Origin: Nemertoderma westbladi
Taxonomy: Eukaryota; Animalia; Xenacoelomorpha
Reading direction: 5' to 3'
NCBI GenBank assembly: GCA_032718475.1
Contig: JAUCBJ010006274.1
Coordinates: 1 to 48,607 of the forward strand
Length of the DNA: 48,607 bases
In this document: positions 1 through 47,893 of the stretch, in pieces
How positions within the stretch are numbered: position 1 is the stretch's first letter
Layout of the letters: every line of letters starts with the position of its first letter
Translations under genes and position numbers: made by a program
The notes under the pieces: model-generated
What the model was told of the DNA's origin: nothing
The model's input: the letters and a program-made list of their open reading frames with translations, nothing else
The model's database searches: none

Positions 1-1356
1 TATATATAGATGTTGCGCTTAACAAATACGCCATGTCGAAATATGTATATTGGCGCTTTTGCGACCTGTTTATATAAGATGAGGGCGTTCTGCGGGATAT
101 AATGGCGTTTTGTAGGCATGTCATCTTAACGCCACAATGGCGATAATGCTACTTAAGACCAAAAAATTCATCATAAGTGGCGTTTGTCATCATCCTATCA
201 TCTCTTGTATTTCATGCAACGAAAAAAGCATATGTTCCTGGGGAACGATTTATAATTCTTTTTGACGGCACCCTGGCTAGCAATAAAAAATAAACCATTT
301 TTAATATAAACAATTAAAATGAGCATAATATTAATTAAAGCTATAAACTCATGGGGTGACTATTAATGGCATTTATTGTGGTATATAGGCCTAAGTAAAA
401 ACACGGGACCTACAGTAAATTATCAGCAATTTACGATTTATGTTCGCATAAGAAGCCTAAGAAGTTTGCTAGGTTCACCAAAGTCAGGTTTTTTAGGATC
501 TAATTTAGACTTTTTATCCTGCAGGCTGCATCGCATGTACCAGTTATACCAAACAGCCAATATACAAAAATTAAATACAGAAGCGTGATTGGCGCAAGTT
601 TGTGGTGCTGCTTCCCAGTGGATAGTTACTGCCCACAACTATATTAGTTTCGTAGGCCGTTCCTTTCCCCTTTGAGGCTTCACTCTTATTGTCATCTCTT
701 GGGCTCCCTCTTGAGAATGCCTTCATTTGTGATGCGAAACAGTACGAGCGCAACCAGTCTAGTGATGGAGACGAGTTTATTCACGAAATTGGCAAATTGT
801 TGACCTATTTATTGTTGGCACACTGTAAACATTTTACAACTAAAGTGGCGTTTCAATTCAAATTCCCATATAAAACAAATTAATAATAAGCAGAATGATT
901 CTGCGGGTAATATTTAGGAATGTCCAGTCCAGTGTACTGTAATTTGTTTCGAAGGCCACATTATTTACATCAACTGAACCATAACATACATGGACCTTCA
1001 AAATCATAGGCAAAACCATACCGGTATCACCTGCACTGTGACCTTAAGAGATCTAAAGACTTACCCGAATCATCATAACCATATCGTCCCTTTCATTTTG
1101 AAACCACCTATATGCCATTTTTGCCGAAATGGTGATTTCTGCGTTTCTCTATGTTAAAATGTATTCTTTTACTTTTATAAGAAGGGATCTAGGGGTCTTA
1201 ACCTCGAATGATAAGTTTATTTTACCGAAAATAACTTATCTTTTATTGGCGCAATTGTAGGACTAATCCCATCACATGCGTACTTTTTAACCGGGTAGTG
1301 TACAAATTTAGGAATCGCGTAATTTTTCTTGAAATTAATATCTCATATCTCTCCAA

Positions 1357-1399
1357 ACCACGTACGCGTTTCGACCTTACTGGGTCTCATCAGCGTGGT
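1357..1399 (-). ncRNA. Minimal type I hammerhead ribozyme
   Basis: Minus strand reads ACCACG-CUGAUGA-GACC(CAGUAA)GGUC-GAAA-CGC-GUA-CGUGGU: complete catalytic core, 6-bp stem I, 4-bp stem II, palindromic minimal stem III (ACGCGU), GUA cleavage triplet; predicted cut between 1363 and 1362. Confidence 0.9.
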
Positions 1400-1456
1400 G
1401 TCGGATTCGAACCTGGGACCTCGAGGCGGAAGCCGAGACTACAACCACTAGGCCAC
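1396..1456 (-). promoter_or_regulatory. tRNA-derived internal RNA polymerase III promoter (A and B boxes)
   Basis: Minus strand: A box TGGCCTAGTGG (1455-1445), anticodon-loop-like CT-TCC-GC, B box GGTTCGAATCC (1413-1403), ending GACACCA. Acceptor and T stems do not pair, so this is not a functional tRNA. Confidence 0.75.
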
Positions 1457-3894
1457 ATGTTCTTGAGATATGGAGTATTAATTTCAAAGACAGCTGCCAT
1501 TTTTTAGCCCCTGATTTTTGATTATTGATAGTAACAATGTGTTGGCAAGCTGTATTTTTCGAGGTGTTTGTTATTTTACTTTTATAAGAAGGGATCTAGG
1601 GTCTTAACCTCGAATGATAAGTTTATTTTACCGAAAATAACTTATCTTTTATTGGCGCAATTGTAGGACTAATCCCATCACATGGTTTGGAGAGATATGA
1701 GATATTAATTTCAAGAAAAATTACGCGATTCCTAAATTTGTACACTACCCGGTTAAAAAGTACGCATGTGATGGGATTAGTCCTACAATTGCGCCAATAA
1801 AAGATAAGTTATTTTCGGTAAAATAAACTTATCATTCGAGGTTAAGACCCCTAGATCCCTTCTTATAAAAGTAAAATAACAAACACCTCGAAAAATACAG
1901 CTTGCCAACACATTGTTACTATCAATAATCAAAATGTATTCTGAATCCGATTAACACACTTAGAAGGCCATGCCCCCTCCCACGTATAACTGAGATATTT
2001 AACTTTTCAAAACCACCTATATGCCAGTTTTGCATAGACCGCATGATAAAGAAATTTACGAAACGTTGATTTAAAATTGGAAACAACGAATCAGGAGCTA
2101 GAATTGTTGTTTATTATGATAGAGGGAGATTTGTTTTATATTTTTAAAACTTAATAATCGAATTCGTCTTAAGGGTTTTAATAATTTTTGAGTGATCATT
2201 GTGAAAAATGAAATATTTTTTTTGAAACAACCTATATCCCTATACATTGTTTCCTACCTAATATGTTACATAATTCCAATACCATAACTTTTTTCGTTTA
2301 AAATCGTTAAATTTAATGGATTCAAAAGTAAATAAGACCAAAATCCGGGAATATTACTTTCAAACAAAATTAGAATCGAAAATGCCGTTTTACAGGAAAA
2401 TACATTTTTGTCATTTAGGTTGTTTGAAAATGAAAGGGACGATAAAATCTTGAAACAGAACTATAACATGAAACCATAACACCAAAAATCGCAAAACTTA
2501 ACCATACCATTACTCTGGGCGTACTGAAGCCATTTTACATATACCCTGGCGATATGTAGACTTTTAATAACCACATTGGCAAATTGTTTACATATTTAGC
2601 ATCTGGCGCATGCCGAATATTTTATAACAAAATTGGTGTTTCATTACATGTTCGTAAATATTACAAATTGAGACAAGTTTTTTGATGTTCGTGTGCCAGA
2701 ATATACTTAGTAGAAATGCTATGAAGAGCTCCTATTATATAATAATATAATATACATTATATATAATTATACAATATATGAAGAGCTGAAGAGATCATAT
2801 TGGCTATCGACAATTTTTGTCGAATTAAAACCATTTTACGTAGATACTGGCGTTATGTAGTCTTTTATTCACGAAATTTGCATATTTATAGTTGGCACAT
2901 TGTAAACATTTTACATCTAAATTGGCGTTTCAATTCAAATTCCCATATAAAACAAATTGATAAGACATGTTATTTTTTATATGTCAGAAACCACAAAATT
3001 AACTGAGCAGAATTCTGCGGGTAATATTTAGGAATGTCCAGCGTACAGTAATTTGTTTGGAAAGCCACTGAACCAATAGCCAAACCTTAATCTGAACCAT
3101 AATATGGATCATAACAAAACCATACCGGTATCATTACCTGCACTGTGACCTTAAGAGATCTAAAGCCGTACCCGAATCATAATCATATCTTGAAACAGAA
3201 CCCTTACATGAAACCATAATAACGATAACGCAAAACTGAACCATACCCTTACTCTGGGCGTATTGAAACCATTTTACATATAACCTGGCGATATGTAGAC
3301 TTAATAACCTCATTGGCAAATTGTTAACATATTTAGCATCATATTTCATATTTATATGTCATAAATAAACCCCTATCATTTAAATTAAAAAAACCGGTCA
3401 TTAAAATTGAAAAAACCCCCATCATTAAAGTTGTCTGATCGCATAATACGAATCTTTATCCTAACCTTAACATGAACAACATTAAAACCTTGTCATTATT
3501 ACTTGTAGGGCGTACCTAGACATTGAACAGTCCGTCATACCAATACCAGTACTGAAACGTGATTGGTGCAAGTTTTCGGTGCTGCTTCCCAGTGGATGTT
3601 TATTGTTCACACATATGTTCGTTTCATCAGCCGTCCCATCCCCTTTGGGGCTCCACTCTTAATGTCATCTCTTGGCCTGCCTCTTGAGAATGCCTTCAAT
3701 CGTGAGGAGAAACCTACCGATCAGATGGCTGCCGTCGGCTGATCAGTGATTGCATTCACCAAGTTTAGCTTATTGGGGTCGGTCTGGACCAGCCCATTTA
3801 TTTTGGTGAACGCAGACTTATTAAACGAGTGCAATGATAGTTGTAATGAAGACGAGTCTGTGCTGACTAAAATACTCAACCACATTAGGTTCTA

Positions 3895-5606: not shown

Positions 5607-7225
5607 TCTGCAAAACTGAATCATAACATTACTCTGGGCGTATTGAGACCGTTTTACATATACCCTGGCGATATGTCGACTTTTAATAACCACATTGGCA
5701 AATTGTTAACATATTTAGCTTCTGGCGCATGCCGAATATTTTATAACAAAATTGGCGTTTCATTACATGTTCGTAAATATTACAAATTGAGACAAGTTTC
5801 TTGTTGTTCGTGTGCCAGAATATACTTAGTAGAAATGCAATAAACAGAGAAGCCGGCAAATATAATAAATGTAAATTGTTGAGAAAACCCCTATCATTAA
5901 AATTGTCTGACCGCATAATACGAACCTTTATCCTAACCTTAACATGAACCACATTAAAACCTTGTCATTATTACTTGTAGGGCGTACCTAGACATTCAAC
6001 AATCCGTCATAACATACAGCCATACCAATACTTCAATGCAGAAACGTGATTGGCGCAAGTTTTCGGTGCTGCTTCCCAGTGGATGTTTACTGGTCACACA
6101 TATTTTCGTTTCATCAGCCGTTCCTTCCCCCTCTGGGGCTCCACTCCATTGTAATTACAAATCACATTCAATGAATTCAATAGCTAAATTTGCAGTGAAA
6201 ACATTGTCAAAGGGAGTGAAAATAATGTAGTTGATTGTTTAACGCCATTTCTATGGAAGGAGTTAAAATAATGTTCTATTTTTAAATAAAATTTATTGGT
6301 TTTACAGTATTATATTATTAGCTTCACAATTTTTTCATTTATGGCGCATTTCCTACTAATCCCTTATTAGAAAATTCATTTTAATCATAATTTGTTAATT
6401 CGTCATTTTTTATATTTATTGCGCATTGTTAACTGCGATCTGAACCAATATCATATATAAGAAAGGCGTATTTGATCCATTATATCTATATATATATATA
6501 ACAGGTTCTGCATTCTCCACTATTTGATAATAGAATGGCGTATAGATATCGGCTATCGCTATTGGGTAGAGAGGCATGTGTGCACAGTAAACCATCAAAT
6601 TATATTACAATAATCGTCTATGATAATAAAATGCTAATAATCCTATGTTATTTATTACAACTCTTTAATATTTGCCTGGAAAAGAAAAGTGTAAACTACA
6701 ACTATTTATTACATGGAAAACAAATACATTTGTTTTGCATGTAATACGTAATTTTGTTCCACAAAATTGCCTTTTCACGTCCCCTAAATTCACGCCCCGT
6801 TTCACTACTCCTTGCTAGCAGTAAACAACTGTACCGGTACTTTGCTTCTAGTGTACCTGGACAGTTTAGTATGCACTCAAGAAATATCCGCAATTTTTAT
6901 AAAGTTGAGCCAGAATAATTGCATTCAACAGTGTATATTTTTTAGGAAATTTGTATGAAAAGAAACCTCTAACCAAGAAAACTCGGTTATAAATTGGTGA
7001 AAAAGCTATTTTGTGGAATTCAATTATATCATGCATGTATTATAGTTGAGAGATCAGTCAACATTAAAACAATAATAAAACAATATATATATTATATTAT
7101 ATATCTATAATATAGTATATGAGTAACATTAATGTCCACAATCTATTGGCCAGTCCAATTTACAGTCTATTGTCCAGCATGTGATCATGAGTTCGATGAT
7201 GGATATTTATTGACCGTCATTTAGT

Positions 7226-7975
7226 TTAATACAGATTCTTTGGCTGGACAGCTAATATGAAGTACACCAGACAATATATGAAGGTACACATAATATAGCT
7301 TGTAGGGAAGATAATTCGAGCAATTTTGTCGAGACGGATGGCTTTATAGTTAGTGGAGTCAACTGAGTGGGTTTTGCGTTTAAAAACAATATCGCAGTGG
7401 CAGACTGCTGCAAACTGAACAAGGGTTGCGAAAACCCACAGCAACCCAGCCGCAAAAGCGACATCTAGGGCCTTGATGTAGGAGACCTTGGGAAGTCGGT
7501 TGTAGGTGTTAAGACTTAGAGTGAGGAGGGTGAGGACACTGGTAATACTGATAGAGGCTCGTGCTGGTACAGCCCGGTAGTCAACCCAGAATCCAACCCA
7601 AGACATTACAACGATTAGGTTGAGTGGGACGAATGCACTGATAGCGTAGTAGCTGATGAGTCGATTGAGTGGGATGTAGATTCGGAGAGTCGAGAAGATA
7701 CCGCTAGGTGTTTGGCGTGACTCCCGTATGAATGATAAGTTTCCGGTTCGGATGGTCTCATGGCTCGGCATCTCAATGTCGGCTACAACTTCTGCTCCTA
7801 GATTTGATTCGCTCATTGCAAAGAAGTCGAAATAAACATGTTCCTCCGAATAGCTGTAACTCTCGAGGATAATGGGGCAGATCTGGGAGTCTAGAGGGAA
7901 GTAGGCCAGATCATATTGGCACCCCGCAACTATGGGAACACGGGTGTTGTAATAAACGTCGCCATTTGGGTAGAC
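7226..7975 (-). CDS. Cys-loop ligand-gated anion channel subunit, paralogue A, coding exon 2 (Cys loop, loops B/C, M1-M4, stop)
   Basis: The open frame extends upstream of the listed ORF to acceptor CCAG|GTC: VYPNGDVYYNTRVPIVAG-CQYDLAYFPLDSQIC-PIILESYSY; SWVGFW, PAR motif before M2, LPKVSYIKALD, LDKIARIIFP. 750 nt, phase 0. Confidence 0.95.
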   Translation of the reverse strand, partial: VYPNGDVYYNTRVPIVAGCQYDLAYFPLDSQICPIILESYSYSEEHVYFDFFAMSESNLGAEVVADIEMPSHETIRTGNLSFIRESRQTPSGIFSTLRIYIPLNRLISYYAISAFVPLNLIVVMSWVGFWVDYRAVPARASISITSVLTLLTLSLNTYNRLPKVSYIKALDVAFAAGLLWVFATLVQFAAVCHCDIVFKRKTHSVDSTNYKAIRLDKIARIIFPTSYIMCTFIYCLVYFILAVQPKNLY

Positions 7976-8262
7976 CTGGCAATATTACCATAATCAGGAC
8001 CTCAAAATTAATTTGTATTTGTTTCTGCATGATAATTTTTTTTGCAAAATTTCCTTCATCTTTATTCAAATTGTTATCTTCGATGTAGAATGAGTTCTGA
8101 ATATGTTTTTTGACTGGAACATGTTATAGATTTCGAATTTTTTGGATATTATGTGCATGTGTGTAGGTGATGATTGTATATGTGCGTGCAGTGTTCCAAT
8201 TCATTATGTTTGGATAGTAGATGCGCTTGAATTGTAGTAGTGTTAGTTTTTTTACCCGCTGC

Positions 8263-11168
8263 TGTAATAGACCAATATAATCATTTTCATATATCCTCAT
8301 ATTCAGAACATCCAGTGGAGGGTTACTGTTTTGTTTCTATATAATGTTGATAACCTAGCTTTAAATATTGCAGTAAACTGGTTTATGAGTAACGGTGGTT
8401 ACCGGTACTGATTGAAAGATATAATGCATGGCAGTACTGGCAGTATATAGATAGACCTCTATATTAATGGCGTTTTGATATTGTCATTCTGCTCTCTGAA
8501 TATCCACAGAAGGATGGATCAGACTGAGTTGATTGAGCAGATCCTTGGGGGGTTTCAAGCAATCCATGCGGCCTCAGACTCAGTCAAACTTTTTAAATCT
8601 ATAAGTGACTCCCTGTCGGTAAACTGCAACCTCATCCTGTTTGGTGATCACTTAGTCATACCAAAGGCTGCTCGAAGTGATATTCTAGAATGCCTTCAAA
8701 GTCCTCATCAAGGAGTGACGAGTACCAAACAATGTGTGCGCCAAACGGTATACTGGCCCGGAATTAGCAGGGACAATAAGGCAATGACATGGGAATGCTA
8801 ACACTGTCAGCAGCGATTGCCAAGTCTACCGAATGAAACTCTCAAGGCAGATGACCCACCTACCCGAACATTTCAGCTCACAACTGCAGACCTATTTAAT
8901 TGATGAGATGCCTTTTTTGGTATATACTGACTGCTTCTCTGGTTACACAAGCATCACGGAGTGGCAAACACCACCATGTGCCAGATAAGTAACCTCTGTA
9001 TTATGCAAACACTTTGTAGACTTGGGGGTTCCAATTGTATTAAGAACTGATGGGGAACCACAATTTTCGGCCCGTTTCACCAGGGATTTCCTGAAATATT
9101 GTGGCTTTGCATGGAAACCCAGCACACCCCACTACCCAACCAGTAATGATCATTTTGGCACTTAGAAGGATAATTGAAGAGTTATCAAAAAAGAAAAACA
9201 GGCAGGTATCTGGCTGTTATCTTTGTTGACTTCTTCAAGGCCTTTGATTCCGTCTCGAAATTATTGCAGCAATCAGATCAGTATACGATGGTTCGACAAC
9301 ATTTGTGTCTACTGTTGACGGTGACACAACCATTTGAAGTGTTATGGGGCGTCCTCCAGGGAGACACAATTGCACCATTCTTGTTCAAAATTGTGGTTGA
9401 CTATGTTCTACGCATGTCCTTAGATCATCATAATGATGATGGGGTGATGATAACTCCACCTACTGGCTCCAGAAGTCGAGGAAATCTTGCCAAGTACCTA
9501 ACTGATCTAGACTTTGCTGATGACTTAGGAGTACTCTCAGAATCACTAGAGGGAGCCCAACGGCTCCTCAGCTCATTAGAACATGCTGCTTCTAGTGTTG
9601 GTCTTTTTATTAACTCCAGAAAGACCAACATTTTGACAGTTAACTTTGAAAGCCCTCAGCAAGTCTCTGATCGGATGAGCATAAGCTCAAAGGATGGTAT
9701 GCTTGAGCATGTGGACGACTTCTGTTACCTGGGATCATGGATCCGGAAGTCAGGTGAGGACCTTCGAATACGTAAGGGAAAGGCATGGACAGCCTTGAAT
9801 AGGCTTTCCAGGATTTGGAAGTCACCGAGAACTAATCGGAAACTTAAGGTCCGATTATTTAGAGCAGCGGTAGTTCCAGTACTCCTATGGGAGTCCATGC
9901 TGGGCTCTAACTGCTGAGGACACCAAATCTCTGGATGGCACATTCACAAGAATGCTACGCCGGGTTCATTGTGTCAAGTACAATGCTCACATCTCCAACC
10001 AGACACTATATAACATTGGAGGTGTCTCATTGGTTCCCCCAAGCTTGACACTAGAACAAAATCGCCTCCGCTTTGCAGGACATTGCTTTCGCCGTGAAGA
10101 CCAGCCAGTGCATAATCTTGTACTTTGGCAGCCTCATGGAGTGAATAAGCATGGTGGACAGCCCATGACTTTCTTGAGACGCATCTTAAAGGACACTGGC
10201 CTTGAAGATGCCGATGATCTAGCAAATGTCATGGGTGATAGGGAGATGTGGCGGCGCAATTTTGTCGACAAGCCGGCACAGCATTCTTAAAAATGCAGCT
10301 GCAATGCAGCATGCCGTTCCTAGTAGTAGTAATGATCATGCTGAAGCATTAGTAAAACGACTCAAGTCATTACTGGCAAAGTATTCTCAACCCGACATTC
10401 ACTCTGAGGAATTCCTCCAAGGACTTATGGAACTCAGAAATTGTCCTCGTGTGACGGAGACTCCCCAAGTGAAACATCACAGTGATGATGAGACTAGGCT
10501 CATGAAAGAGACACAGCAACTGCCACTCACCGTGAGTAAACAGAGGAATTATACAACCACACCACCACTGATCTACCCAGCCTCAAAATCGGGTCTAATG
10601 TTCGTGTACAAGACTCCAATACCAATCGCTGGTCACATATTGGTACGATTGCTGGTGTGGGTAGAAACCGCCATTATATGGTTAAGCTACCATCGTGACG
10701 CACCTGGTGGCGAAACCAACGTTTTCTTAGACCATATCACTGAAGAAAAATTTAGATTTTACACTAGATGAGTATGTAAATTAAAGTTAAACTGAAACTG
10801 AAAGTAAACCTGACACAATGCATTAACCAAGCGAAAGGCTTCAAAAGAAAATAGTTAATTTATTCATTAACGATTTAGACTATAAAATTCGAAAGGAAAA
10901 AAAAGGAAAGGGGGTGGGGATAGACCAATATAATCATTTTCTTATATCCTCTTTTCATACAGAACAGCTGGTGGCGGGTTACTATACAATGTTGAGTTGC
11001 GTGCTTTAATATATAGCAGATACTGGTTTTAGTGTAATGGTGGTTACTGGTACTGATTTTCAGATAGAATACATATCAGTACCGGCAGTATATAGACATC
11101 TACATTAATGGCGTTTTGATATTGTCATTCTTCTCTCTGAGTATCCACAGAAAGACGGAGACAAAACA
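8263..11168 (+). mobile_element. Decayed Gypsy-type LTR retrotransposon (internally deleted; integrase remnant) inside intron A
   Basis: Direct repeats 8268-8512 and 10921-11152; TGTAA start and AACA end; purine tract ~10890-10920 before the right LTR; flanks GCTGC/CCTGC. Integrase motifs HQGVTSTK..VYWPGI, GVPIVLRTDGEPQF, PHYPTSNDHAEALVKRLK with stops and frameshifts. Confidence 0.85.
9154..10327 (+). mobile_element. RTE-group LINE, family 2, 5'-truncated, inserted into the Gypsy integrase
   Basis: RT motifs FVDFFKAFDSV, GVLQGDTIAP, FADD, YLGS; closely matches 28011-29240; (TAG)n tail; TSD AGTAATGATCAT at 9142-9153 and 10328-10339; frameshifts and a ~45-bp internal deletion. Confidence 0.92.
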
Positions 11169-11484
11169 CCTGCAATCTTGCCGAAGTTGTGTAATTATTA
11201 CTGCACTATCTTATTGACTATGTAATCATTATCATTTGTATCTTATGCTATGAGTAGTGTATTTGATAAACAGTGTATCAGTAGGCAATGCCGCGGAGTA
11301 AAACAAACTGGGTTGTGAGGATAACTACCAACTTGTTTCAGTTGGTTAAAATTTTATTGTGCCAAGTTTTGTAAAAATGACTCAGGTCCTTTCCATTGAT
11401 TAAAATATACTTAGATCCAACACATCGTGATGGATATCATGAAAATATTTAATTCTAAGATCCTGATATGGTAATTATTCGCTC

Positions 11485-11901
11485 CTCGAGTTGTTTTATC
11501 CCGCCAGATGACTTAGGTGGAAGGAATTCGTTGACAACATAGAGATGAGGGATCCATACGGATTGGGTGAGGAGGGGTCGAAGAGCGATAGAGGAATGGT
11601 GTTGTGGGAATGTAGAACCGAACGCTAACAGGGGGTTGTTCCACTGCATACGAAGATAGATGAGTGCCGAGAATGACATTGATGAATCCGTAATATCTCC
11701 AATGTGTGCGAGACCAATATTAACGCCTACACGTAGCATACGGTTCTGGTGTGGGCGTTCCAATATATTTTCTTTTTCTCTCGCAATTAGTTCACTGATA
11801 TGTCGCATTACAGACGCGCTGCTGTTGCTGGGATGACCAGAACTCGCGAAACTGCCCATTACCATGGTAACAATGAACATCAGCTTTGTGATTACAGACA
11901 T
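11485..11901 (-). CDS. Cys-loop channel paralogue A, coding exon 1 (signal peptide and N-terminal ligand-binding domain)
   Basis: ATG at 11901; MSVITKLMFIVTMVMGSFA hydrophobic leader; RP..V.V.I, IYLRMQW (loop D), WIPHLYVVNE (loop A); 417 nt = 139 codons, same length as exon 1 of B. Spliced product 388 aa. Confidence 0.9.
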
Positions 11902-11951
11902 TGTTAATATAATCAAGCAAACGATAAATATTTCTAAAATAATATAACTGT

Positions 11952-14900
11952 AGGGTTACTACTGCTAGGCTTACTACTGCTAGGCTTACTACTGCTAGGC
12001 TTACTGCTGCTAGGTTTACTACTGATAGGCTTACTACTACAAGGCTTACTACTGCTAGGCTTACTACTGCTAGGCTTACTACTGCTAGGCTTACTGCTGC
12101 TAGGTTTACTACTGCTAGGCTTACTACTACAAGGCTTACTACTGCTAGGCTTACTACTGCTAGGCTTACTACTGCTAGGTTTACTACTGCTAGGCTTACT
12201 ACTGCTAGGCTTACTACTGCTAGGTTTACTACTGCTAGGCTTACTACTGCTAGGTTTACTGCTGCTAGGTTTACTACTGCTAGGCTTACTACTGCTAGGC
12301 TTACTACTGCTAGGTTTACTACTGCTAGGCTTACTACTGCTAGGCTTACTACTGCTAGGTTTACTACTGCTAGGCTTACTACTGCTAGGCTTACTACTGC
12401 TAGGCTTACTACTGCTAGGCTTACTACTGCTAGGCTTACTACTGCTAGGCTTACTACTGCTAGGTTTACTACTGCTAGGCTTACTACTGCTAGGCTTACT
12501 ACTGCTAGGCTTACTACTGCTAGGCTTACTACTGCTAGGCTTACTACTGATAGGCTTACTACTGATAGGCTTACTACTGCTAGGCTTACTACTGCTAGGC
12601 TTACTGCTGCTAGGCTTACTACTGCTAGGCTTACTGCTGCTAGGTTTACTACTGCTAGGCTTACTACTGCTAGGCTTACTACTGCTATGTTTACTACTGC
12701 TAGGCTTACTACTGCTAGACTTAATACTGCTAGGTTTACTACTGCTACGCTTACTACTGCTAGGGTTACTACTGCTAGGCTTACTACTGCTAGGCTTACT
12801 ACTGCTAGGCTTACTACTGTTAGGCTTACTGCTGCTAGGCTTACTACTGCTAGGCTTACTACTGCTAGGCTTACTACTGCTAGGCTTAATGCTGCTAGGC
12901 TTACTGCTGCTAGGTTTACTACTGCCAAGCTTACTACTGCTAGGCTTACTACTGCTAGGCTTACTGCTGCTAGGTTTACTACTGCTAGGCTTACTACTGC
13001 TAGGCTTACTACTGCTAGGCTTACTACTGCTAGGCTTACTACTGCTAGGCTTACTACTGCTAGGCTTACTACTGCTAGGCTTACTACTGCTAGGCTTACT
13101 ACTGTTAGGCTTACTACTGCTAGGCTTACTACTGCTAGGCTTACTACTGCTAGGCTTACTGCTGCTAGGCTTACTACTGCTAGGCTTACTGCTGCTAGGT
13201 TTACTACTGCTAGGCTTACTACTGCTAGGCTTACTACTGCTAGGTTTACTACTGCTAGGCTTACTACTGCTAGGCTTACTACTGCTAGGTTTACTACTGC
13301 TAGGCATACTACTGCTAGGCTTACTACTGCTAGGCTTACTACTGCTAGGCTTACTACTGCTAGGCTTACTACTGTTAGGCTTACTGCTGCTATGCTTACT
13401 ACTGCTAGGCTTACTACTGCTAGGCTTACTGCTGCTAGGCTTACTACTGCTAGGCTTACTACTGCTAGGCTTACTACTGCTAGGTTTACTACTGCTAGGC
13501 TTTCTACTGCTAGGCTTACTACTGCTGGGCTTACTACTGCTAGGCTTACTACTGCTAGGCTTACTACTGCTAGGCTTACTACTGCTAGGCTTACTACTGC
13601 TAGGCTTACTACTGCTAGGTTTACTACTGCTAAGCTTACTACTGCTAGGCTTACTGCTGCTAGGTTTACTACTGCTAGGCTTACTACTGCTAGGCTTACT
13701 ACTGCTAGGTTTACTACTGCTAGGCTTACTACTGCTAGGCTTACTACTGCTAGGTTTACTACTGCTAGGCTTACTACTGCTAGGCTTACTACTGCTAGGC
13801 TTACTACTGCTAGGCTTACTACTGCTAGGCTTACTACTGCTAGGCTTACTACTGCTAGGTTTACTACTGCTAGGCTTACTACTGCTATGCTTAATACTGC
13901 TAGGCTTACTACTGCTAGGCTTACTACTGCTAGGCTTACTACTGATAGGCTTACTACTGATAGGCTTACTACTGCTAGGCTTACTACTGCTAGGCTTACT
14001 GCTGCTAGGCTTACTACTGCTAGGCTTACTGCTGCTAGGTTTACTACTGCTAGGCTTACTACTGCTAGGCTTACTACTGCTATGTTTACTACTGCTGGGC
14101 TTACTACTGCTAGACTTACTACTGCTAGGTTTACTACTGCTACGCTTACTACTGCTAGGGTTACTACTGCTAGGCTTACTACTGCTAGGCTTACTACTGC
14201 TAGGCTTACTACTGCTAGGCTTACTACTGTTAGGCTTACTACTGCTAGGCTTACTACTGCTAGGCTTACTACTGCTAGGCTTACTGCTGCTAGGCTTACT
14301 ACTGCTAGGCTTACTGCTGCTAGGTTTACTACTGCTAGGCTTACTACTGCTAGGCTTACTACTGCTAGGTTTACTACTGCTAGGCTTACTACTGCTAGGA
14401 TTACTACTGCTAGGTTTACTACTGCTAGGCATACTACTGCTAGGCTTACTACTGCTAGGCTTACTACTGCTAGGCTTACTACTGCTAGGCTTACTACTGT
14501 TAGGCTTACTGCTGCTATGCTTACTACTGCTAGGCTTACTACTGCTAGGCTTACTGCTGCTAGGCTTACTACTGCTAGGCTTACTGCTGCTAGGTTTACT
14601 ACTGCTAGGCTTACTACTGCTAGGCTTACTACTGCTAGGTTTACTACTGCTAGGCTTACTACTGCTAGGCTTACTACTGCTAGGCTTACTACTGCTAGGC
14701 TTACTACTGCTAGGTTTACTACTGCTAGGCTTTCTACTGCTAGGCTTACTACTGCTGGGCTTACTACTGCTAGGCTTACTACTGCTAGGCTTACTACTGC
14801 TAGGCTTACTACTGCTAGGCTTACTACTGCTAGGCTTACTGCTGCTAGGCTTTGTACTGCTAGGCTTACTACTGCTAGGCTTACTACTGCTAGGCTTACT

Positions 14901-15089
14901 ACTGCTAGGCTTACTACTGCTAGGCTGACTACTGCTAGGGTTACTACTGCTAGGCTTACTACTGCTAGGCTTTCTACTGCTAGGCTTACTACTGCTGGGC
15001 TTACTACTGCTAGGCTTACTACTGCTAGGCTTTCTGCTGCTAAGCTTACTACTGCTAGGCTTACTACTGCTAGGTTTACTACTGCTAGG
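11952..15089. repeat. 15-bp minisatellite (TTACTACTGCTAGGC)n, left arm, ~209 units
   Basis: Direct inspection; strict 15-bp phase with point variants. Confidence 0.99.
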
Positions 15090-15614
15090 TGTTAGCTTAT
15101 TCAATTCCGCTAACACAAACCCATAAAGTAAGCCGATAAGCAATATTGGGGGCCACGAGGTTGATTACCCAATCTCGTGCCACCCCAATAAAGTGGGAAG
15201 GAGAAACACACAATGAGGGTCAGGGGCCAAACCCCTAACAGAGAGAGAACAGAAGGAGTGAAGGGAAACACTCCAAAGGGTGCCAACAGGGATATTAGCC
15301 AATCAGGGGGGAAGCATCGGCTGAGTATGCAATATGGCCAACCGTGCAATATATATATTACCGGTCGATGCAGCTTTCATTCAGTTATCCCAGTACAGTC
15401 AGGCAGTACGGTGACAGTTAGGACCGTCACCGCCGTCACCATATTACCGGTACATTACCATCATTAACGCTATCTGTTATCATCCTATTTATACTGTATT
15501 CTACATATATTAACAATACGTCGGAGCAACACAAACTCTTTTCCATCACGGTACGGCGGGGACGCGTACAGAAACAACACCGGATAAACCGGGATCCTCT
15601 CGGATCCCGTCACA
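15090..15614 (+). repeat. 5' LTR
   Basis: TG..CA termini; CCAAT (ATTAGCCAAT) and TATA-like AATATATATATT; aligns with 20885-21418. Confidence 0.95.
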
Positions 15615-17473
15615 GTCGACTAAACTCAGTCCAACCAACTGCCTGCAGACTGTGGCTGATAGCCACCAAGAGACAAGATGAGTAGAGGAGGAGAAGCGAC
15701 ACCGCCGCGGACCCCGGACGACGATCTAACGATCCGCGAGGCCGCGACGAGACGGTATCAACCCACGACGCCGGACCCATCGATAACGGGCGATCCGGCG
15801 ATCCAAGATGAGGGGGGCCGTCTACAAAGAGAGGACGAGTCGGGAGTCGAAAGGGAGAAAGACGAGTCGACGCGGAGCGAGGGTCGACGTACCGATGTCG
15901 CCGGCCAGCCACAGGCCGAGGGCGACGGACGGCCCACCGGAACGGCGACGGTGGGGCCGCCGGTACGACGTCGGACCCGGAGAGATGGAGGAGAGGTCGG
16001 CGACGAGGACGTCGGGGTTTCTGATCGACTTCGACGGGCCTACCCGCGACCCGGGAGCAACTGAAGGAGGCCAAAGGAGGGGCGAAGATAGACGAGGTGA
16101 AGATTGAGGAAACGACTAGGTGAGTCGAACAGATACTTTGATTACCTAATGCGTTTTGGGCAGAGAGAACTAGCCGAGGAGAGGGCGAGGGGAGTTGCCA
16201 ACGAACTGATTGAACTATGGGAGTGTGGGGGTATGCAGCCTAGTGTAGTGTACATAGGGCCATACTTAGTCGATGCCCGGGGAGTAAAATTAGTGGGTTG
16301 GAGGAGACCGCAGGAGGGCGAATCCGAGGTTAACCCCGAGGATTCGGTCTCGTCGGTCGGAGGAAGTTCCGGGAGGCGGGGGAAAGTTGGTGGGACGGAG
16401 GGGCGACGGGAGTCCGTCGCAACCGATAAGTCTGCTACATCCTCCGCAAAAGAAAGAAGGGTGCGGAGAGATAAATCTAGAGTATAAATTAGAAATGGCG
16501 GCGGCAGAGCAGAAACGGTTAGAGAGACAATTGAGGGAGGAAACCGCATTCTCAGAGGGTTAGGAGAGTGGAAGGGAGTATAGAGAGAAAGCCGAGGAGT
16601 CTAGAGAGAGCCGGAGTGTAGAGAGCGAGAGATGAGAGTAGAGACGAGCCGGCGAGGCGGCTCTGAGATGGTTGCGAGAGTGGCAGAGTCGGCCGAGCAG
16701 GAGTATGCGAGAGAGAGAGATAGAGGTAAGCGCAGGCGGGATGATTTGCGTGCCCGGCTAGGGAGGCTTAGGCAACATCGAGCCGAACTGAATCAGCGCC
16801 GACTAGAACTGGCGCGGTTGGAACTGTCAGAGAGTGAGACCCCACTTACAGGCACCGGGCGAGAGAACCAGAACTGGTGTAGCCGTACGGGCGGGGGGGG
16901 GGGGGGTAATAGTAGTACGTTAGAAATAGTTAATATTAATAGTACCGTAGTAGATAACCCTAATCCCTTTATTACAGGAAATAATATTTTACCTGGTAGT
17001 AGTAATTTAAATTTAAATTCAAATACTCTAACATAATAATTTCAAATATTCAAACCATTCAAAATAATTCGAATAATAATTTAAGTTTAGAAAATAGTAG
17101 TGATCTCAGTAATTTAAATAATTTAAATAATAATCCCGTTTCAAATTCTAACAATTTAATTGATTTAACAAATAATATTGGGAATGGTGCTATTAATATG
17201 AGCGTGTCGGACGTACATAACCCGGCAGACGGGGGCCTGGTAGGCCACGCAGTTAGTAGGCAGGAGGTGGCAGGGGTCGAGCCAACCCGACGGCGGCCTG
17301 GTAGGCCACGTAGTTGGTAGGCAGGAGGTAGCGGGGTTGAGCCAACCCGAGGTGGGCCTGATGGGCCACGCAGTAGTAGAGAGAGAGGCGGGGGTGAATA
17401 GACCCAGCCGTAGTAGAGACAGTGCGTCGACTAGAGAGGGGTGTAGAGACGAAGTAAGAGATAGTGAAGTTAG

Positions 17474-19360
17474 ATGTGGCGAGTGGGGGGGGGGGCTACC
17501 GGCGCCCCACCACATAAGATTAGTGGCGAGAGAGGGGGGGTAGAGAGTGTCCGACAAGAGGGACGCAGAAGTGTAGTAAGAGATAGTGAAGTTAGAAGTG
17601 GCGGGTGGGGGGGGGCTACGGGCACCCCACCGCGAGAGATTAGTAGCGAGAGAGGGGGGGCAGAGAGTGTCCCACAGGCGTCGGCGAATAATGCGCGGGC
17701 CGAATTAGGTAAACCGCAACACCCGGCGATGGGGAGTAATAGGGGGATTGCGAGTATCCCCAGCGGCGTGCGATCGAGCAGAGAGAGGCAGGTTGACGTC
17801 GCGAGAGGGCGGACGAAGCGTCGAGCCCGATCAGAAGAGGGAAGAAGAACAGTGGAGTTTAACCGGGAGGTCGACGAGAGATCTCATGAGCCGGAATACT
17901 GCACTGAAAAGAGAAGAAGAGGAGATAGTAGAAGAAGTGTCGCCACGAACGATAGGAGTGTGAGGACGGATAGCGGACCGTCGATAGTAGAGATGGAGTT
18001 AGGGAGTCAGTGGGGTCGAACTTCGGGAGATTGCCGTCGCCCCGGAGAAACGCACCACACGCCAAGAGAGGGGTACAGGACGTACCAATACAAAGTCGAG
18101 AACAGGAGAGGGGATCGGAGAGAAGCTTCCCGACGGGATATAGCTGCCGATCGAGAGTGCGGTAGTCGCCGGGAGATTCGAGATTCGCGAAGATTAAACT
18201 TCGGTTCGAAAGGGCACATGCAGACTGCAGGACATACTGTAGGCCTTACTGCACATACTATTATAGGCCATGCTGGGAGAGGTAGAGTAGGCGATAGGGT
18301 AGCGCGAACGACGGGATTAAACCCGGAAGCCGCGGAGTACATACCGGTAGGTAGGCAGGAAGTGGGTAGGCCTATATCGGTACAGCAGCATGACTATAAT
18401 ACACAGGGACATAACATATATCCAGGGGAGGGGAGAGTTATTGGAGATAGACGTATGGGCCCCAATATATTAACATCAACCCCAGTACCAAACATACCGG
18501 CCGGGGGGGGGGGACAGGGTGACATTCCCCCATCACAATATCGACAATATACCCCAATAGGAGCAAGAACATCGAACTCCCTGGACGAGAACAGGTCGTG
18601 CGGACAGTCGCTACCACACGCGGCCATACAGGGGACTGCTAGTCCACAGTTAGCTGGTAGCAGGGCCACACCGTGGCAGGGACAGAAAGAAAATAACACC
18701 ATAAATAAACACAATCCCAATATACCCAGTAGGCCGAGTCTAGACAATCGAAACATTAAATCGGTACATATAAACCTAAGCGCGATACGTGAAGGACTAT
18801 ACAGGAAACGCTATAATCCAGGATTCCAATGTCAATTACATCGGGACGGAACCCATGAGACCAGGAGTTGTAAGTACTGGCAAGCGTTGCCCAAACGAGA
18901 TCGTGTAGCCTACACAGACGCAAACGGACTATGTCATCGATGTGTGGTAAAAGGACACAGATCCGGAGAGTGTTGGAAAGAGAGAGGATGTGAAAGGACT
19001 AAACCAGGGGCAGAGAGGCCCATGAGCAAACATAAAGGAGTCGGAGGCGTGTTGCATACGCACGCAGGACTGACACAGTGCGAGGGGGCATTACATGGGC
19101 GGACGCCGTGTATACCAAGGGACGATCGGGGGTCGTCGAGGGCTTTAATGCCAGCGCACATACGAAGGGGGAGGCCAGCAAAGGTAGCACCGAAGAGAGT
19201 GTGGCGAAGAGTTAGAGGACGTATAGGAGGGCAGCAGGAGAGTGCCTACTGGAAGAAGGGGCACGTGAGAGTTTTTAGTCGTCCAAAGTTTTGGACTGAG
19301 GGGGGTGGGAATGAGGGCGAGACGCCCTTCCCACGCATAAAATATAAAATAATTATTTAA
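17474..19360 (+). pseudogene. Gag-like ORF remnant with BEL/Pao-type Cys/His knuckles
   Basis: CQLHRDGTHETRSC-KYWQALPKRDRVAYTDANGL-CHRCVVKGHRSGEC-WKERGC matches the spacing of the BEL/Pao gag zinc-knuckle cluster. Upstream Arg/Glu/Gly-rich broken ORFs from 15678 are probably the same reading frame disrupted by indels. Confidence 0.65.
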
Positions 19361-19389
19361 TTAAAAACAATAAAATAATTAAATAATAA

Positions 19390-20660: not shown

Positions 20661-20884
20661 TGAGAGTGCCGGGGAAACAAAAATTGTGTGAGAGAAGCGC
20701 ACGATCGGCCCGACACAAGACGCCAGAGGGTAGTGACATCATACCCATAGGGAGCGGCCTGGAAAGCCGGCTCCGAAAGAAAATAGACCCACCCCACACC
20801 CGATACTAGATCGGGATCCAGCGGAATTGTAGCGCACTTTAGTTGGATGCTATCTTCCTACCGGGAAGATAGCATGGGGGGGAG

Positions 20885-21418
20885 TGTTAGCTTATCCAAT
20901 TCCGCTAACACAAACCCATAGAGTGAGCCGATTAAGCAATATTGGGGGCCACGAGGTTGGTTACCCAATCTCGCGTCACCCCAATAAAGTGGGAAGGAGA
21001 AACACACAATGAGGGTCAGGGGCCAAACCCCTAACAGAGAGAGAACACAAGGAGTGAAGGGAAACACTCCAAAGGGTGCCATGCCAACAGGGATATTAGC
21101 CAATCAGGGGGGGAGCATCGGCTGAGGTACTGCAACATGGCCAAACCGTGCAATATATATATTACCGGTCGATGCAGCTTTCATTCAGTTATCCCAGTAC
21201 AGTCAGGCAGTACGGTGACAGTTAGGACCGTCACCGCCGTCACCATATTACCGGTACATTACCATCATTAACTGCTATCTGCTATCATCCTATTTATACT
21301 GTATTTCATATATTAACAATAACGTCGGAGCAACACAAACTCTTTTCCATCACGGTACGGCGGGGACGCGTACACAAACAACACCGGATAAACCGGGATC
21401 CTCTCGGATCCCGTCACA
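20885..21418 (+). repeat. 3' LTR
   Basis: Preceded by PPT; followed by TSD CTAGG. Confidence 0.95.
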
Positions 21419-33071: not shown

Positions 33072-33818
33072 CTACAGATTCTTTGGCTGGACAGCTAATA
33101 TGAAGTACACCAGACAATATATGAAGGTACACATAATATAGCTTGTAGGGAAAATAATTCGGGATATTTTGTCAAGCCGGATGGCTTTATAGTTAGTGGA
33201 GTCAACTGAGTGGGTTTTGCGTTTAAAAACAATATCGCAGTGGCAGACTGCTGCAAATTGAACAAGGGTTGCGAAAACCCACAGCAACCCAGCCGCAAAT
33301 GCTAAGTCAATTGCCTTCATGTAGGAGACCTTGGGAAGCTGGTTGTAGGTATTGAGACTGAGGGTGAGAATGGTAAGCACACTAGTAATACTGATAGAGG
33401 CTCGTGCTGGTACAGCCCGGTAGTCAATCCAGAATCCAACCCAAGACATTACAACGATTAGGTTGAGTGGGACGAATGCACTGATAGCGTAGTAGCTGAT
33501 GAGTCGGTTGAGTGGGATGTAGATTCGGAGAGTCGAGAAGATACCGCTAGGTGTTTGGCTTGACTCCCGTATGAATGTTAAGTTTCCGGCTCGGATGGTC
33601 TCATGGCTCGGCATCTCAATGTCGGCAACAACTTCCGCTCCTAGATTTGATTCGCTCATTGCAAAGAAGTCGAAATAAACATGTTCCTCCGAATAGCTGT
33701 AACTCTCGAGGATGATGGGGCAGATCTGGGAGTCTAGAGGGAAGTAGGCCAGATCATATTGGCACCCCGCAACTATGGGAACACGGGTGGTGTAATAAAC
33801 GTCGCCATTTGGGTAGAC
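33072..33818 (-). CDS. Cys-loop ligand-gated anion channel subunit, paralogue B, coding exon 2
   Basis: Acceptor CCAG|GTC; VYPNGDVYYTTR..CQYDLAYFPLDSQIC..ESYSY; PAR motif; M1-M4; 747 nt open. Confidence 0.95.
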   Translation of the reverse strand, partial: VYPNGDVYYTTRVPIVAGCQYDLAYFPLDSQICPIILESYSYSEEHVYFDFFAMSESNLGAEVVADIEMPSHETIRAGNLTFIRESSQTPSGIFSTLRIYIPLNRLISYYAISAFVPLNLIVVMSWVGFWIDYRAVPARASISITSVLTILTLSLNTYNQLPKVSYMKAIDLAFAAGLLWVFATLVQFAAVCHCDIVFKRKTHSVDSTNYKAIRLDKISRIIFPTSYIMCTFIYCLVYFILAVQPKNL

Positions 33819-34172
33819 CTGGCAATATTACCAATATCAGGACCTCAAAATTAATTTTATTTTCAATATTTTTATTCTAATATTTTTTTTCCAATCTTTT
33901 TGTTCAATTTCTCTCATGTTTATTTCAATATATGTTTGAAAGAAACCAAAGATTGTGCAGCATAAAACCACAGTGGCTTGTATTGTTGGCTAGTAATTTG
34001 TTACGGTTGGTTAGGGTTTTAATTGTATCAAGATTCATTAAAAATGTATTTTACTAAGGTCTTCGATATTAAAAGATCTTAGGCCCAACTGAGTTCCCTC
34101 ATATCGCTTCGCGATGGAAATCATGAAAGTAATATTTATATTCGGAGATCCTGATATGTTAAATATTGGCAC
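33819..34172 (-). other. Intron of paralogue B (354 bp), GT-AG, with complementary termini
   Basis: GAG|GTGCCAATATTTAACATATCAGGATCTC ... GAGGTCCTGATATTGGTAATATTGCCAG|GTC; phase 0. Confidence 0.9.
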
Positions 34173-34589
34173 CTCGAGCTGTTCTATCCCATCAGATGAT
34201 TTAGGTGGATGGAATTCGTTTACAACATAGAGATGAGGGATCCATACGGATTGGGTGAGGAGGGGTCGAAGAGCGATAGAGGAATGGTGTTGTGGGAATG
34301 TGGATCCAAATGCTAGTAGAGGGTCATTCCATTGCATGCGAAGATAGATCAGTGACGAGAATGACATTGATGAATCCGTAACGTCCCCAACACTTGCTAG
34401 ACCAATATTAACGCCTACACGTAGCATACGGTTCTGGTGTGGGCGTTCCAATATATTTTCTTTTTCTCTTGCAATTAGTTCACTGATATATCGCATTACA
34501 GAAGCGCTGCTGTTGCTGGGATGACCAGAACTCGCGAAACTGCCCATTACCATTATAACAATGACAATGAGCTTAGTGATTACAGACAT
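34173..34589 (-). CDS. Cys-loop channel paralogue B, coding exon 1
   Basis: ATG at 34589, signal-peptide-like leader, IYLRMQWNDP, WIPHLYVVNE; 417 nt ending at a GT donor. Spliced product 387 aa. Confidence 0.92.
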
Positions 34590-34999
34590 CGCTAATATAA
34601 TAAAGTTGATAATATATATTTGCAAATTATAAAATAAACAAATATTCAAATTCAAATAGCTTATTATAGCAGAATAGTAACATATAACTGTACTGCTGTA
34701 CCATAAATATTAAATTGGGGATTGTAACAATAGAGACTGGACTGAATAGAGGTAGGTGACAGTAGATTGGTTGTTCAGGGCAGATTGTCTGGACAAATTG
34801 AGTGAGCAATTAGTACCAATAGACCTATGTAATTCTTTAATATTATATCGAGTTGTTTAACAATTATATCAGTGGTACAACATTTGGTACAACATTAACT
34901 AAAGTAAGTATTGTAACAATTAGTAACTATTGGTAACTAATAGTAACTATTGGGCTATGTTAAAAATTGTGATGGATCCATTGACCCCTGCCCTGTGCG

Positions 35000-46891: not shown

Positions 46892-47614
46892 CTAAAAGTA
46901 AACAGTGTTTGACATGACAATAAATATAACAAAATAAACGACATTTGTTACTAAAAACGTGAGCGGGAACATATATCGAGATGTTTTATCCATAAGTTTA
47001 GCATAATTACGTGGTGGCTGTTCATTCGTCCATTTTGAGTCGTTTATCTTTCTTTGAGAAACTCGAAACATGTGTTCCAACTGACAAGAGAGTGAAAACT
47101 CCAGGAGAGCAGCCATTACGAAAATAACTCCAATATTTAAATAAATATCCAACGCTTTTATATATGAAACCTTTGGTATTGCATCGTAGGTGCTTATTGA
47201 AAGTGTCAACAGAGTAAGAACAGTCATTACACTCAATTTAGCGCGAGCGCTAACTGGCTCCACCCAAAAGCTAATCCAAGATATAAAGACAACAAGATTT
47301 AAAGGTAATATAGTAGCTATTATATAATAGTTAATATAACGTTGAAACTTGAGGTAAACTGTTATTTCTGTGAAATTACCAACCAATGGAAACGCAACAG
47401 AGGTCTTATTCAACGTTACGGAGTCACTTACTAATGCGTGGTGTTCTGGAAGGTGTATAACATCATCTACCAAGTAAGCTCCAATGTTTCCATCCATCAT
47501 GTTGTTGGAAAACTCAAAAATGACGTCACTCTCAGGGTAACTGTAACTCGACAATATTATTGGACAATACTGCGTGTCCATGGGGAATACAAATAGGTTG
47601 AATTTACACTTTAC
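46892..47614 (-). CDS. Cys-loop ligand-gated channel subunit C (divergent), terminal exon; upstream exon(s) lie beyond the window
   Basis: Likely acceptor TTCAG|GTAAAG; CKFNLFVFPMDTQYC Cys loop, SSYSY, SWISFW, SAR-M2, PKVSYIKALD, MDKTSRYMFP; open to the stop at 46892. Confidence 0.88.
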   Translation of the reverse strand, partial: VKCKFNLFVFPMDTQYCPIILSSYSYPESDVIFEFSNNMMDGNIGAYLVDDVIHLPEHHALVSDSVTLNKTSVAFPLVGNFTEITVYLKFQRYINYYIIATILPLNLVVFISWISFWVEPVSARAKLSVMTVLTLLTLSISTYDAIPKVSYIKALDIYLNIGVIFVMAALLEFSLSCQLEHMFRVSQRKINDSKWTNEQPPRNYAKLMDKTSRYMFPLTFLVTNVVYFVIFIVMSNTVYF

Positions 47615-47893
47615 CTGAACGCAGATAGACATGGATGTATTTAGATACAAACCACACTTCACAACAATGATGCGAATTTAAGACACAGGCTTCGTTCGAG
47701 AGTTTATGCTGATGCAAATCCAAACTTGGCGAGTTAATATCTTTCCTGAATTCTAAATTATCAATTTAGGTACAGGAGCAGGTTACAGTGGCATGTTATT
47801 CTGACCAAAACAATAAACTAAAGTCAATAGAACAACTGTAACTATATGTACCTGAATAAGTACCCATTAACTACCTGTATTTAACTAATTGAT

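What the first reader, a model, noticed from the sequence alone, without database searches (positions are those of the whole stretch)
7976..11484. Intron whose two ends base-pair close to the splice sites, conserved in both paralogues (candidate structure-guided splicing system)
Seen: in A the 5' arm UCAGGAUCUUAGAAUUAA pairs at all 18 positions with the 3' arm UUAAUUUUGAGGUCCUGA. All three non-Watson-Crick positions are G-U wobbles on the pre-mRNA strand (they would be A-C on the other strand), and pairing continues outwards (AAUAAUUACCAUA / UAUGGUAAUAUU, with bulges) to within ~5 nt of both junctions. B (33819-34172) keeps the same stem, with one U-G of A present as C-G, while the intron interiors show little similarity and differ tenfold in length (3509 vs 354 bp). 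There is no polypyrimidine tract before the AG, and the donors match the U1 consensus poorly (GTGCCA, GAGCGA). Inference: the stem is selected as RNA and defines the intron by juxtaposing weak splice sites, tolerating kilobases of inserted transposons. Known partial parallels: euglenid non-conventional introns and TIR-bearing non-canonical introns of the larvacean Fritillaria borealis.
Basis: partly seen in the sequence, partly recalled or inferred. Interest (0 to 1): 0.88.

Follow-up and report, generated by a model that had tools for sequence, protein, structure and literature searches.

The report
Transposon-like intron with paired ends
The single intron of two duplicated neurotransmitter-receptor genes in an invertebrate has ends that are inverted copies of each other right up to the predicted splice sites, most likely the worn ends of a small transposon that became an intron, and a role of the predicted RNA stem in splicing is possible but untested.

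Summary
The stem is real: A's ends pair at -37.0 kcal/mol (0 of 2000 shuffles) and B's at -27.9. The ~36-nt inverted repeat is in register with the G[T/A]...AG ends and flanked by AGG at both junctions, the layout of a transposon-derived (introner-like) intron. Several supports for a selected, structure-guided system fail. The interiors are homologous (72% identical), so A and B are one insertion, not two examples. B carries stem-breaking changes and shows no strand bias. Neutral decay of a once-perfect repeat gives stems this good in 3-56% of simulations. Hints remain: 4 of 4 transitions give G-U (p=0.06), and A's strand gap is uncommon under neutrality (1.4-5.6%). The 3' arm holds a branch-point-like CTGAT, and A's GA donor came with a gain of consensus +5G, which suggests ordinary spliceosomal recognition. 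No RNA data were available, so the junctions are inferred. No third copy of the element was found. The host may be an acoel (tree only). The scan noted a similar paired-end intron in another genome (e1-7499326), not on this DNA.

The parts
11485..11901 (-). Gene A coding exon 1 (Cys-loop receptor, N-terminal part of the ligand-binding domain), ending ...QLE
   Evidence: Pfam Neur_chan_LBD profile 13-92, E 1e-9; ORF; A/B differences mostly at third codon positions, 9/4/24
7226..7975 (-). Gene A coding exon 2, starting VYP..., to the stop codon
   Evidence: Pfam Neur_chan_LBD from profile 108 plus Neur_chan_memb; 8/2/25 codon-position differences from B
7976..11484 (-). Inferred intron A, GA...AG, 3509 nt
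   Evidence: exons joined in frame; junction not shown by RNA; profile does not single it out
11449..11484 (-). 5' arm of the terminal inverted repeat of A (+1..+36); 18-bp core 11449-11466; GA donor with +5G
7976..8011 (-). 3' arm of A (-36..-1); core 7994-8011; branch-point-like CTGAT at 7993-7997 inside the stem; AG acceptor
   Evidence: a second version with three changed bases (7994, 8003, 8005) in contigs of runs X1 and X2
11194..11421 (-). Interior of A homologous to the interior of B (33868-34089)
   Evidence: 151 matches / 59 mismatches / 30 gap columns, 0 of 300 shuffles
8020..11190 (.). About 3.15 kb present in A only, just inside the 3' arm; holds the mobile-element pieces below (ends approximate)
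   Evidence: length difference and alignment ends
9151..10335 (+). 5'-truncated LINE-type (RVT_1) retroelement with a 12-base direct repeat at its ends; very high copy
   Evidence: Pfam RVT_1; 92% to 28008-29242; flanks; contig depth about 1e6 vs about 40 elsewhere
8267..11159 (+). Degraded element bounded by ~250-bp direct repeats (8267-8518, 10920-11159, 78.5% alike) with an integrase zinc-binding fragment; likely an LTR-retrotransposon remnant into which the LINE inserted
   Evidence: self-BLAST; Integrase_H2C2; flanks
34173..34589 (-). Gene B coding exon 1
   Evidence: Pfam; 88% to A region
33072..33818 (-). Gene B coding exon 2
   Evidence: Pfam; 94.5% to A region
33819..34172 (-). Inferred intron B, GT...AG, 354 nt; arms 34137-34172 and 33819-33854; first 11 nt mirror the last 11 at 9 of 11 positions
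46892..47677 (-). Gene C, 3' part of a related Cys-loop receptor; 5' boundary of the exon unresolved
   Evidence: Pfam; sister to A/B in tree, support 0.97; upstream 21 residues score above 372 of 400 random peptides

Best explanation
The intron ends are a ~36-nt inverted repeat that runs to the inferred G[T/A] and AG splice sites and is flanked by AGG, and the intron is most likely the relic of a small inverted-repeat DNA transposon that inserted once, before the gene duplicated, and is probably removed by the ordinary U2 spliceosome. Shown: the inverted repeat, its register with the ends, the AGG repeat, and the common origin of A and B. Inferred steps: (1) a ~350-nt element inserted at AG|G (or G|G) in an intron-free Cys-loop receptor gene, and its ends plus the duplicated target supplied GT and AG, so that splicing restores the frame; (2) the gene duplicated; (3) A took up ~3.15 kb of retroelements next to the 3' arm and changed its donor from GT to GA while gaining +5G; (4) the arms have since decayed from -58 (perfect) to -37 and -28 kcal/mol. 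The stem is predicted to form and may help modestly, but these data do not need it to be selected.
For: Register: B's first 11 nt match the reverse complement of its last 11 at 9 positions with no offset, and AGG spans both junctions in A and B. Introners with TIRs that take splice sites from the TSD are described, with GA donors in 0-40% of a family's introns (10.1101/2022.06.06.494994, passages; PMC11282704). A's 5' arm pairs better with B's 3' arm over 50 nt (-42.9) than with its own (-37.0), as expected of a longer ancestral repeat eroded differently in each copy. Interiors are homologous. The arms are not frozen: B has C-U and A-G mismatches, and a second A version has 3 changes in 40 nt against 25 in 1553 nt in five X1 contigs elsewhere in the intron (p=0.03, post hoc). 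Neutral simulations give a pair as good as observed in 9%, 3%, 30%, 13% and 56% of 1500 runs under five rate settings. Spliceosomal marks: G..AG ends, AG at the exon end, CTGAT with A at -19 in both copies, +5G gained in A at the cost of a repeat pair (consensus AG/GTAAGT; branch consensus recalled). The coding pattern stops at QLE: the next four A/B differences are all at codon positions 1-2, against 23 of 72 in the exons (p=0.014).
Against: No third copy of either arm was found: none in the window, none among contigs of X1 and X3 at 85% likeness apart from one 33-nt AT-rich match in X4 (16 pieces not shown), none at 95%. So a family is not shown, and AGG at both junctions is also the common proto-splice site. 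All 4 transitions at Watson-Crick pairs give G-U (p=0.06). A's 12 kcal/mol strand gap arises in only 1.4-5.6% of neutral runs, and one rate setting gives p=0.03. A 13-nt core of the 5' arm is identical in A and B (p=0.014, chosen post hoc). The second A version has G in place of the branch-like A, which weakens that branch-point call. The junction leaves the loop two residues shorter than in 60 of 63 homologues.
Confidence: 0.55

Rival explanations
1. Transposon origin, but the stem has been kept by selection as an RNA bridge that pairs a weak donor with an acceptor lacking a pyrimidine tract, as in zebrafish AC/GT introns and Drosophila complementary boxes; the spliceosome still does the cutting.
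For: 4 of 4 transitions give G-U; in A all core mismatches are wobbles; at one position B has C-G, A has U-G and the second A version would have U-A if its 5' arm equals the window's; that version still pairs at -35.1 sense vs -26.0 antisense; the stronger stem is in the long intron with the GA donor; the stem survives whole-intron folding; both copies keep a one-base bulge at shifted positions with the same CTGAT-to-AG distance.
Against: None of these passes a clear threshold (p 0.01-0.13, several post hoc). B has no strand bias. Three transversions break pairs. C-to-T and A-to-G changes on the sense strand, which transcription-linked deamination would favour (recalled), also give G-U. The stem covers the branch-like motif. 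The phase of the second A version is unknown.
Confidence: 0.27
2. One reading: a genome-wide, structure-defined splicing system like euglenid non-conventional introns, in which the stem rather than U1/U2AF defines the intron.
For: Weak donors in both copies, a GA donor in A, no pyrimidine tract, an A-rich stretch before the 3' arm, and pairing close to both ends.
Against: One independent intron only. Ends are G..AG. The Euglena code (N3CDG ... CH'G N5-6|R, PMC12501133 abstract) is not met: +4..+6 are CGA and CCA. A gained consensus +5G while breaking a terminal pair. GA donors are handled in copepods (12% of introns, PMC5714493). Whether pyrimidine tracts are normal in this species is unknown.
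Confidence: 0.07
3. The inverted repeat arose without a transposon, by a template switch or fold-back during break repair that copied ~40 nt in reverse while the intron was created or remodelled.
For: No family copies found; AGG repeats are expected at ordinary junctions.
Against: The repeat ends exactly at both splice sites, which repair would not predict; the window holds several other inverted-repeat elements; old copies diverged by 28% or more would escape an 85% filter.
Confidence: 0.08
4. The junction is not QLE|VYP (for example G[T/A]...AT giving QLE|CQVYP), or gene A with its GA donor is no longer spliced, so the stem geometry is misread or irrelevant in A.
For: A 3.1-kb satellite starts ~50 nt upstream of A's start codon.
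Against: Random two-residue insertions score as well as the junction or better in 391 and 395 of 400 trials, so the profile measures length only. The repeat register, the AG and the change of substitution pattern all point to QLE|VYP. Both reading frames are intact.
Confidence: 0.1

Closest known systems
TIR/TSD introners (MITE-derived spliceosomal introns; Gozashti et al., 10.1101/2022.06.06.494994, passages read; review PMC11282704, main text read)
   Same: Inverted repeat at the intron ends; short direct repeat overlapping both junctions; splice sites formed from element end plus target; exact restoration of the frame; GA donors occur.
   Different: No multi-copy family found; arms 15-20% diverged; repeat ~36 nt or more; one copy expanded tenfold by nested retroelements.
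Amoebophrya introner elements (PMC7789003, passages read)
   Same: Inverted repeats between 5' and 3' ends, 3-5 nt direct repeats over the boundaries, predicted hairpin joining the exon ends; also seen there in canonical introns.
   Different: There the repeats are 8-20 nt in repeated families, mostly with non-canonical ends, in a dinoflagellate; here a single G..AG intron in an animal.
Fritillaria borealis non-canonical introns (PMC13326754 abstract, section 21 and passages; PMC11282704; the 2019 paper itself not read)
   Same: Animal introns at new positions with TIR and TSD, removed by a U2 spliceosome.
   Different: Those are mostly AG/AC and AG/AT with YAY at both borders; here G[T/A]..AG, ending CAG, with no YAY before the donor.
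Zebrafish (AC)m-(GT)n bridged introns (PMC4691745 abstract and discussion) and Drosophila complementary intron boxes (PMC2724269 abstract)
   Same: A long-range stem across a spliceosomal intron with weak sites; this is how the stem would work if it is functional.
   Different: Those are shown by genome-wide enrichment or conservation and by minigenes; here a unique-sequence repeat reaching the splice sites, one instance, no test.
Euglenid non-conventional introns (PMC12501133 abstract and discussion)
   Same: End-pairing, no pyrimidine tract, likely MITE origin, wide length range.
   Different: The required CDG/CH'G signature is absent; ends follow G..AG.
GA donors of the copepod Eurytemora affinis (PMC5714493, first part of text)
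   Same: GA donor preceded by exonic AG.
   Different: +3 is G here, not the near-obligate A; no stems are described in the part read.

Membership tests
TIR introner (MITE-derived intron) | Terminal inverted repeat at or next to the intron ends | tested here: met
TIR introner (MITE-derived intron) | Target-site duplication overlapping the junctions | tested here: inconclusive
   AGG spans both junctions in A and B, but one site cannot be told from the proto-splice consensus (caveat stated)
TIR introner (MITE-derived intron) | Several sequence-similar introns at unrelated loci (families of 5 or more) | tested here: inconclusive
TIR introner (MITE-derived intron) | New intron position, absent from orthologues | not testable with these tools
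   No close orthologue found; a 36%-identical receptor, L001, is uninterrupted across this site but is distant; ancestral receptor intron positions are recalled only
TIR introner (MITE-derived intron) | Removed from the mRNA by splicing | not testable with these tools
   no RNA holder listed
Euglenid non-conventional intron | 5'-N3CDG ... CH'G N5-6|R signature | tested here: not met
   +4..+6 are CGA (A) and CCA (B); no matching triplet at the 3' end
Euglenid non-conventional intron | Non GT-AG ends | tested here: not met
   B is GT-AG and A GA-AG under the inferred junction
Fritillaria-type non-canonical intron | AG/AC or AG/AT ends with YAY triplets | tested here: not met
   the only in-frame AG..AT option ends AAT and has no YAY before the donor; rank 110 of 576 and 78 of 621
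Structure-bridged spliceosomal intron (zebrafish/Drosophila type) | Stable predicted stem across the intron near weak sites | tested here: met
Structure-bridged spliceosomal intron (zebrafish/Drosophila type) | Conservation of pairing beyond neutral expectation | tested here: inconclusive
Structure-bridged spliceosomal intron (zebrafish/Drosophila type) | Disruption and compensatory rescue in a minigene | not testable with these tools
   bench test

The most novel reading that the evidence does not exclude
In this animal lineage (possibly an acoel) an old wave of inverted-repeat transposons created many of the introns, and their end stems have been kept as RNA bridges that let GA donors and acceptors without pyrimidine tracts work across kilobases of later insertions: a genome-wide, stem-assisted intron class in a bilaterian, with unique-sequence stems reaching the splice sites.
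Probability: 0.15. Interest if true: 0.75.

Novelty: new member of a known kind. Interest (0 to 1): 0.35.

Why it matters
As it stands, this is a clean single case of what looks like intron gain from an inverted-repeat element in an animal receptor gene, caught while ageing: duplication, donor drift from GT to GA, and tenfold growth by nested retroelements. Searches and passages of two acoel papers showed no report of such introns in acoels; most subscription papers and all supplements were not seen. If the stem proved selected and common, it would show how a transposon's ends turn into a splicing aid, a step proposed for euglenids and Amoebophrya and testable here with three natural versions of one intron.

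Tried and rejected
RNA evidence: no RNA holder listed; this is no evidence on expression. Run X6 laid nothing; X4 laid one 33-nt AT-rich piece; X5 covered only the LINE. No joint skipping the insert of intron A among the 15 joints shown (141 not shown). Close protein relatives: none (best 37%; 27-45% among the 150 listed); the Atlas gave only the family. The metagenome scan gave one distant, uninterrupted receptor. Rfam: 0 matches. LINE homologues gave no taxon names. Profile scoring cannot place the junction. The idea that the 5' arm is coding (ERIIT) was rejected: 15 of 400 random peptides match it in A but 210 of 400 in B, and the differences there are all at codon positions 1-2. Gene C: whether the 21 residues before VKC are coding is inconclusive (28 and 37 of 400). 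The Fisher test for the 5' arm used a miscount (7); the count is 6 of 39, redone. A recalled report of introners in an acoel was not borne out (no 'worm' in PMC12130899). Huff et al. 2016 is not held. Earlier scan notes: none for this genome or sequence.
Full report
Setting. The window is repeat-rich animal DNA; no whole genome is held. It holds two near-identical two-exon genes on the minus strand, A and B, and the 3' part of a third, C, all Cys-loop ligand-gated channels (Pfam Neur_chan_LBD and Neur_chan_memb). No close relatives were found. In a FastTree tree of 135 proteins, A/B and C group together (0.97) and their sister is a GABA-receptor-like protein of the acoel Symsagittifera roscoffensis (0.91). 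Branches are long, so 'possibly an acoel' is a weak inference.

Observation. The ends of intron A pair at -37.0 kcal/mol (0 of 2000 dinucleotide shuffles; z -9.8) and those of B at -27.9 (0 of 2000; z -6.2). Of 4857 tiles of the window, only B's 3' arm pairs as well with A's 5' arm. The stem is part of the minimum-energy fold of the whole 3.5-kb intron A (+10..+36 with -9..-36), and B's core pairs with probability near 1.

The interiors are homologous: A nt 64-291 aligns with B nt 84-305 (151 matches, 59 mismatches, 30 gap columns; 0 of 300 shuffles). A is therefore a B-like intron of about 350 nt plus about 3.15 kb inserted just inside the 3' arm. The insert holds a very high-copy LINE with a 12-base flanking repeat, nested in an element with ~250-bp direct repeats and an integrase fragment. 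A and B come from one duplication (fourfold differences 14 of 65 and 12 of 111), so they count as one case. B's stem has a C-U and an A-G mismatch and extra bulges, and no strand bias (-27.9 vs -25.7; -30.7 vs -33.3 over 50 nt).

The junction. No RNA run was listed. A profile of 113 homologues does not single out QLE|VYP (rank 173 of 576 and 149 of 621), and 60 of the 63 homologues that matched the motif have two more residues there. This preference is for length only, since random two-residue inserts do as well in 391 and 395 of 400 trials. Three things favour QLE|VYP: the only AG after the last in-frame stop; the shift of A/B differences to codon positions 1-2 right after QLE (4 of 4 vs 23 of 72, p=0.014); and the register of the inverted repeat. 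A G[T/A]..AT junction adding CQ is the main alternative (rank 82 and 51).

Anatomy. The repeat does not stop short of the junctions. In B the first 11 nt mirror the last 11 at 9 positions with no offset, and AGG spans both junctions in both genes. An element with TG...CA ends and a GG target repeat, or one taking AG from an AGG repeat, would give exactly this and would be spliced out without trace (inference). This is the layout described for TIR introners (10.1101/2022.06.06.494994, passages; PMC11282704; PMC7789003, passages). A's 5' arm pairs better with B's 3' arm than with its own over 50 nt (-42.9 vs -37.0), which suggests a longer ancestral repeat. A family is not shown: no other copy in the window or among contigs at 85% or 95% likeness; these tables are filtered and cut, and copies as old as the A/B split (28% diverged) would be missed.

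Is the stem selected? The 5' arms differ at 6 of 39 columns against 59 of 210 in the interior (p=0.11). The 3' arms differ at 3 of 40 (p=0.005 vs interior), but this equals the exon-2 fourfold rate (p=0.76), and the arm carries the acceptor and a CTGAT with A at -19. Simulated neutral decay from a perfect repeat (-58.4) gave a pair as good as observed in 9.4%, 3.3%, 30.3%, 13.3% and 56.2% of 1500 runs under five rate settings, and a strand gap like A's in 1.4-5.6%. Contigs of runs X1 and X2 show a second version of A's 3' arm with three changes. If its 5' arm is the window's (the only A-type 5' arm laid is identical; phase unknown), these turn U-G to U-A, U-A to U-G (removing the branch-like A) and G-U to G-G; the duplex stays at -35.1. 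Counting by hand over all versions, 4 of 4 transitions at Watson-Crick pairs give G-U (p=0.06), while three transversions break pairs. Sense-strand deamination would also favour G-U (recalled). The result is suggestive, not decisive.

Mechanism. A differs from B at +2 (T to A) and +5 (C to G). B matches the repeat at both, so A is taken as derived. The +5 change gains the consensus G (AG/GTAAGT) and breaks a terminal pair, which fits continued snRNA recognition rather than a stem-defined cut (inference from one case). The Euglena signature is not met and neither is the Fritillaria AG/AY-YAY pattern. If the stem has a function, it would be a bridge like those of zebrafish and Drosophila (PMC4691745; PMC2724269 abstract), and it would have to open for the branch region to be read.

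The profile aligns residues upstream of the proposed acceptor, but not significantly (28 and 37 of 400), so that stretch may be exon or intron.

Verdict. A real feature, best read as the ageing terminal repeats of a transposon-derived spliceosomal intron (0.55), with a fair chance that the stem is now kept as a splicing aid (0.27) and little support for a new splicing system (0.07). It works like an introner, but is not filed as a member of an introner family because copies were not shown. Supplements were not consulted; those of the introner surveys may list this species.

Noticed in passing
window 11947-15089 and 21419-22286: A 15-bp satellite array of about 210 copies begins ~50 nt upstream of gene A's start codon; a second array of 58 copies lies beyond a GC-rich element. 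B has no such array.
   Followed up: no
window 15089-21418: A ~6.3-kb GC-rich element with ~530-bp direct repeats (15089-15614, 20884-21418, 95%) sits between the two satellite arrays; its 628-aa ORF has no Pfam hit. Likely an LTR-type element inserted into the satellite.
   Followed up: partly
window 7940-11540, runs X1 and X2: Contigs show a second version of gene A's intron, about 1.6% different and carrying the same insert pieces; allele or third paralogue is unresolved.
   Followed up: partly
window 7165-8020 vs 33008-33862 and 11425-11947 vs 34109-34637: The 3' halves of A and B are closer (94.5%; fourfold 12/111) than the 5' halves (88%; 14/65, p=0.08), which may reflect gene conversion reaching into the 3' arm.
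   Followed up: partly
window 9151-10335: The LINE in intron A has summed contig depth near 1e6 against about 40 for single-copy DNA, so it is a very abundant family.
   Followed up: no
window 1082-2444, 1516-1934, 6738-7037, 40574-40662: Several inverted-repeat or palindromic elements, including nested near-perfect palindromes; their ends do not resemble the intron arms.
   Followed up: partly
window 11930-11945 (minus strand): A U-rich TTTTAG lies some 35 nt before A's start codon and could be a 5' UTR or trans-splice acceptor; spliced-leader trans-splicing is reported for 30% of genes of one acoel.
   Followed up: no
L001 279-1880: An uninterrupted 533-residue Cys-loop receptor frame in a metagenome contig, 36% identical to B exon 2.
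   Followed up: partly
window 39504-40334: A 24-bp tandem array, 35 copies, 98% alike.
   Followed up: no
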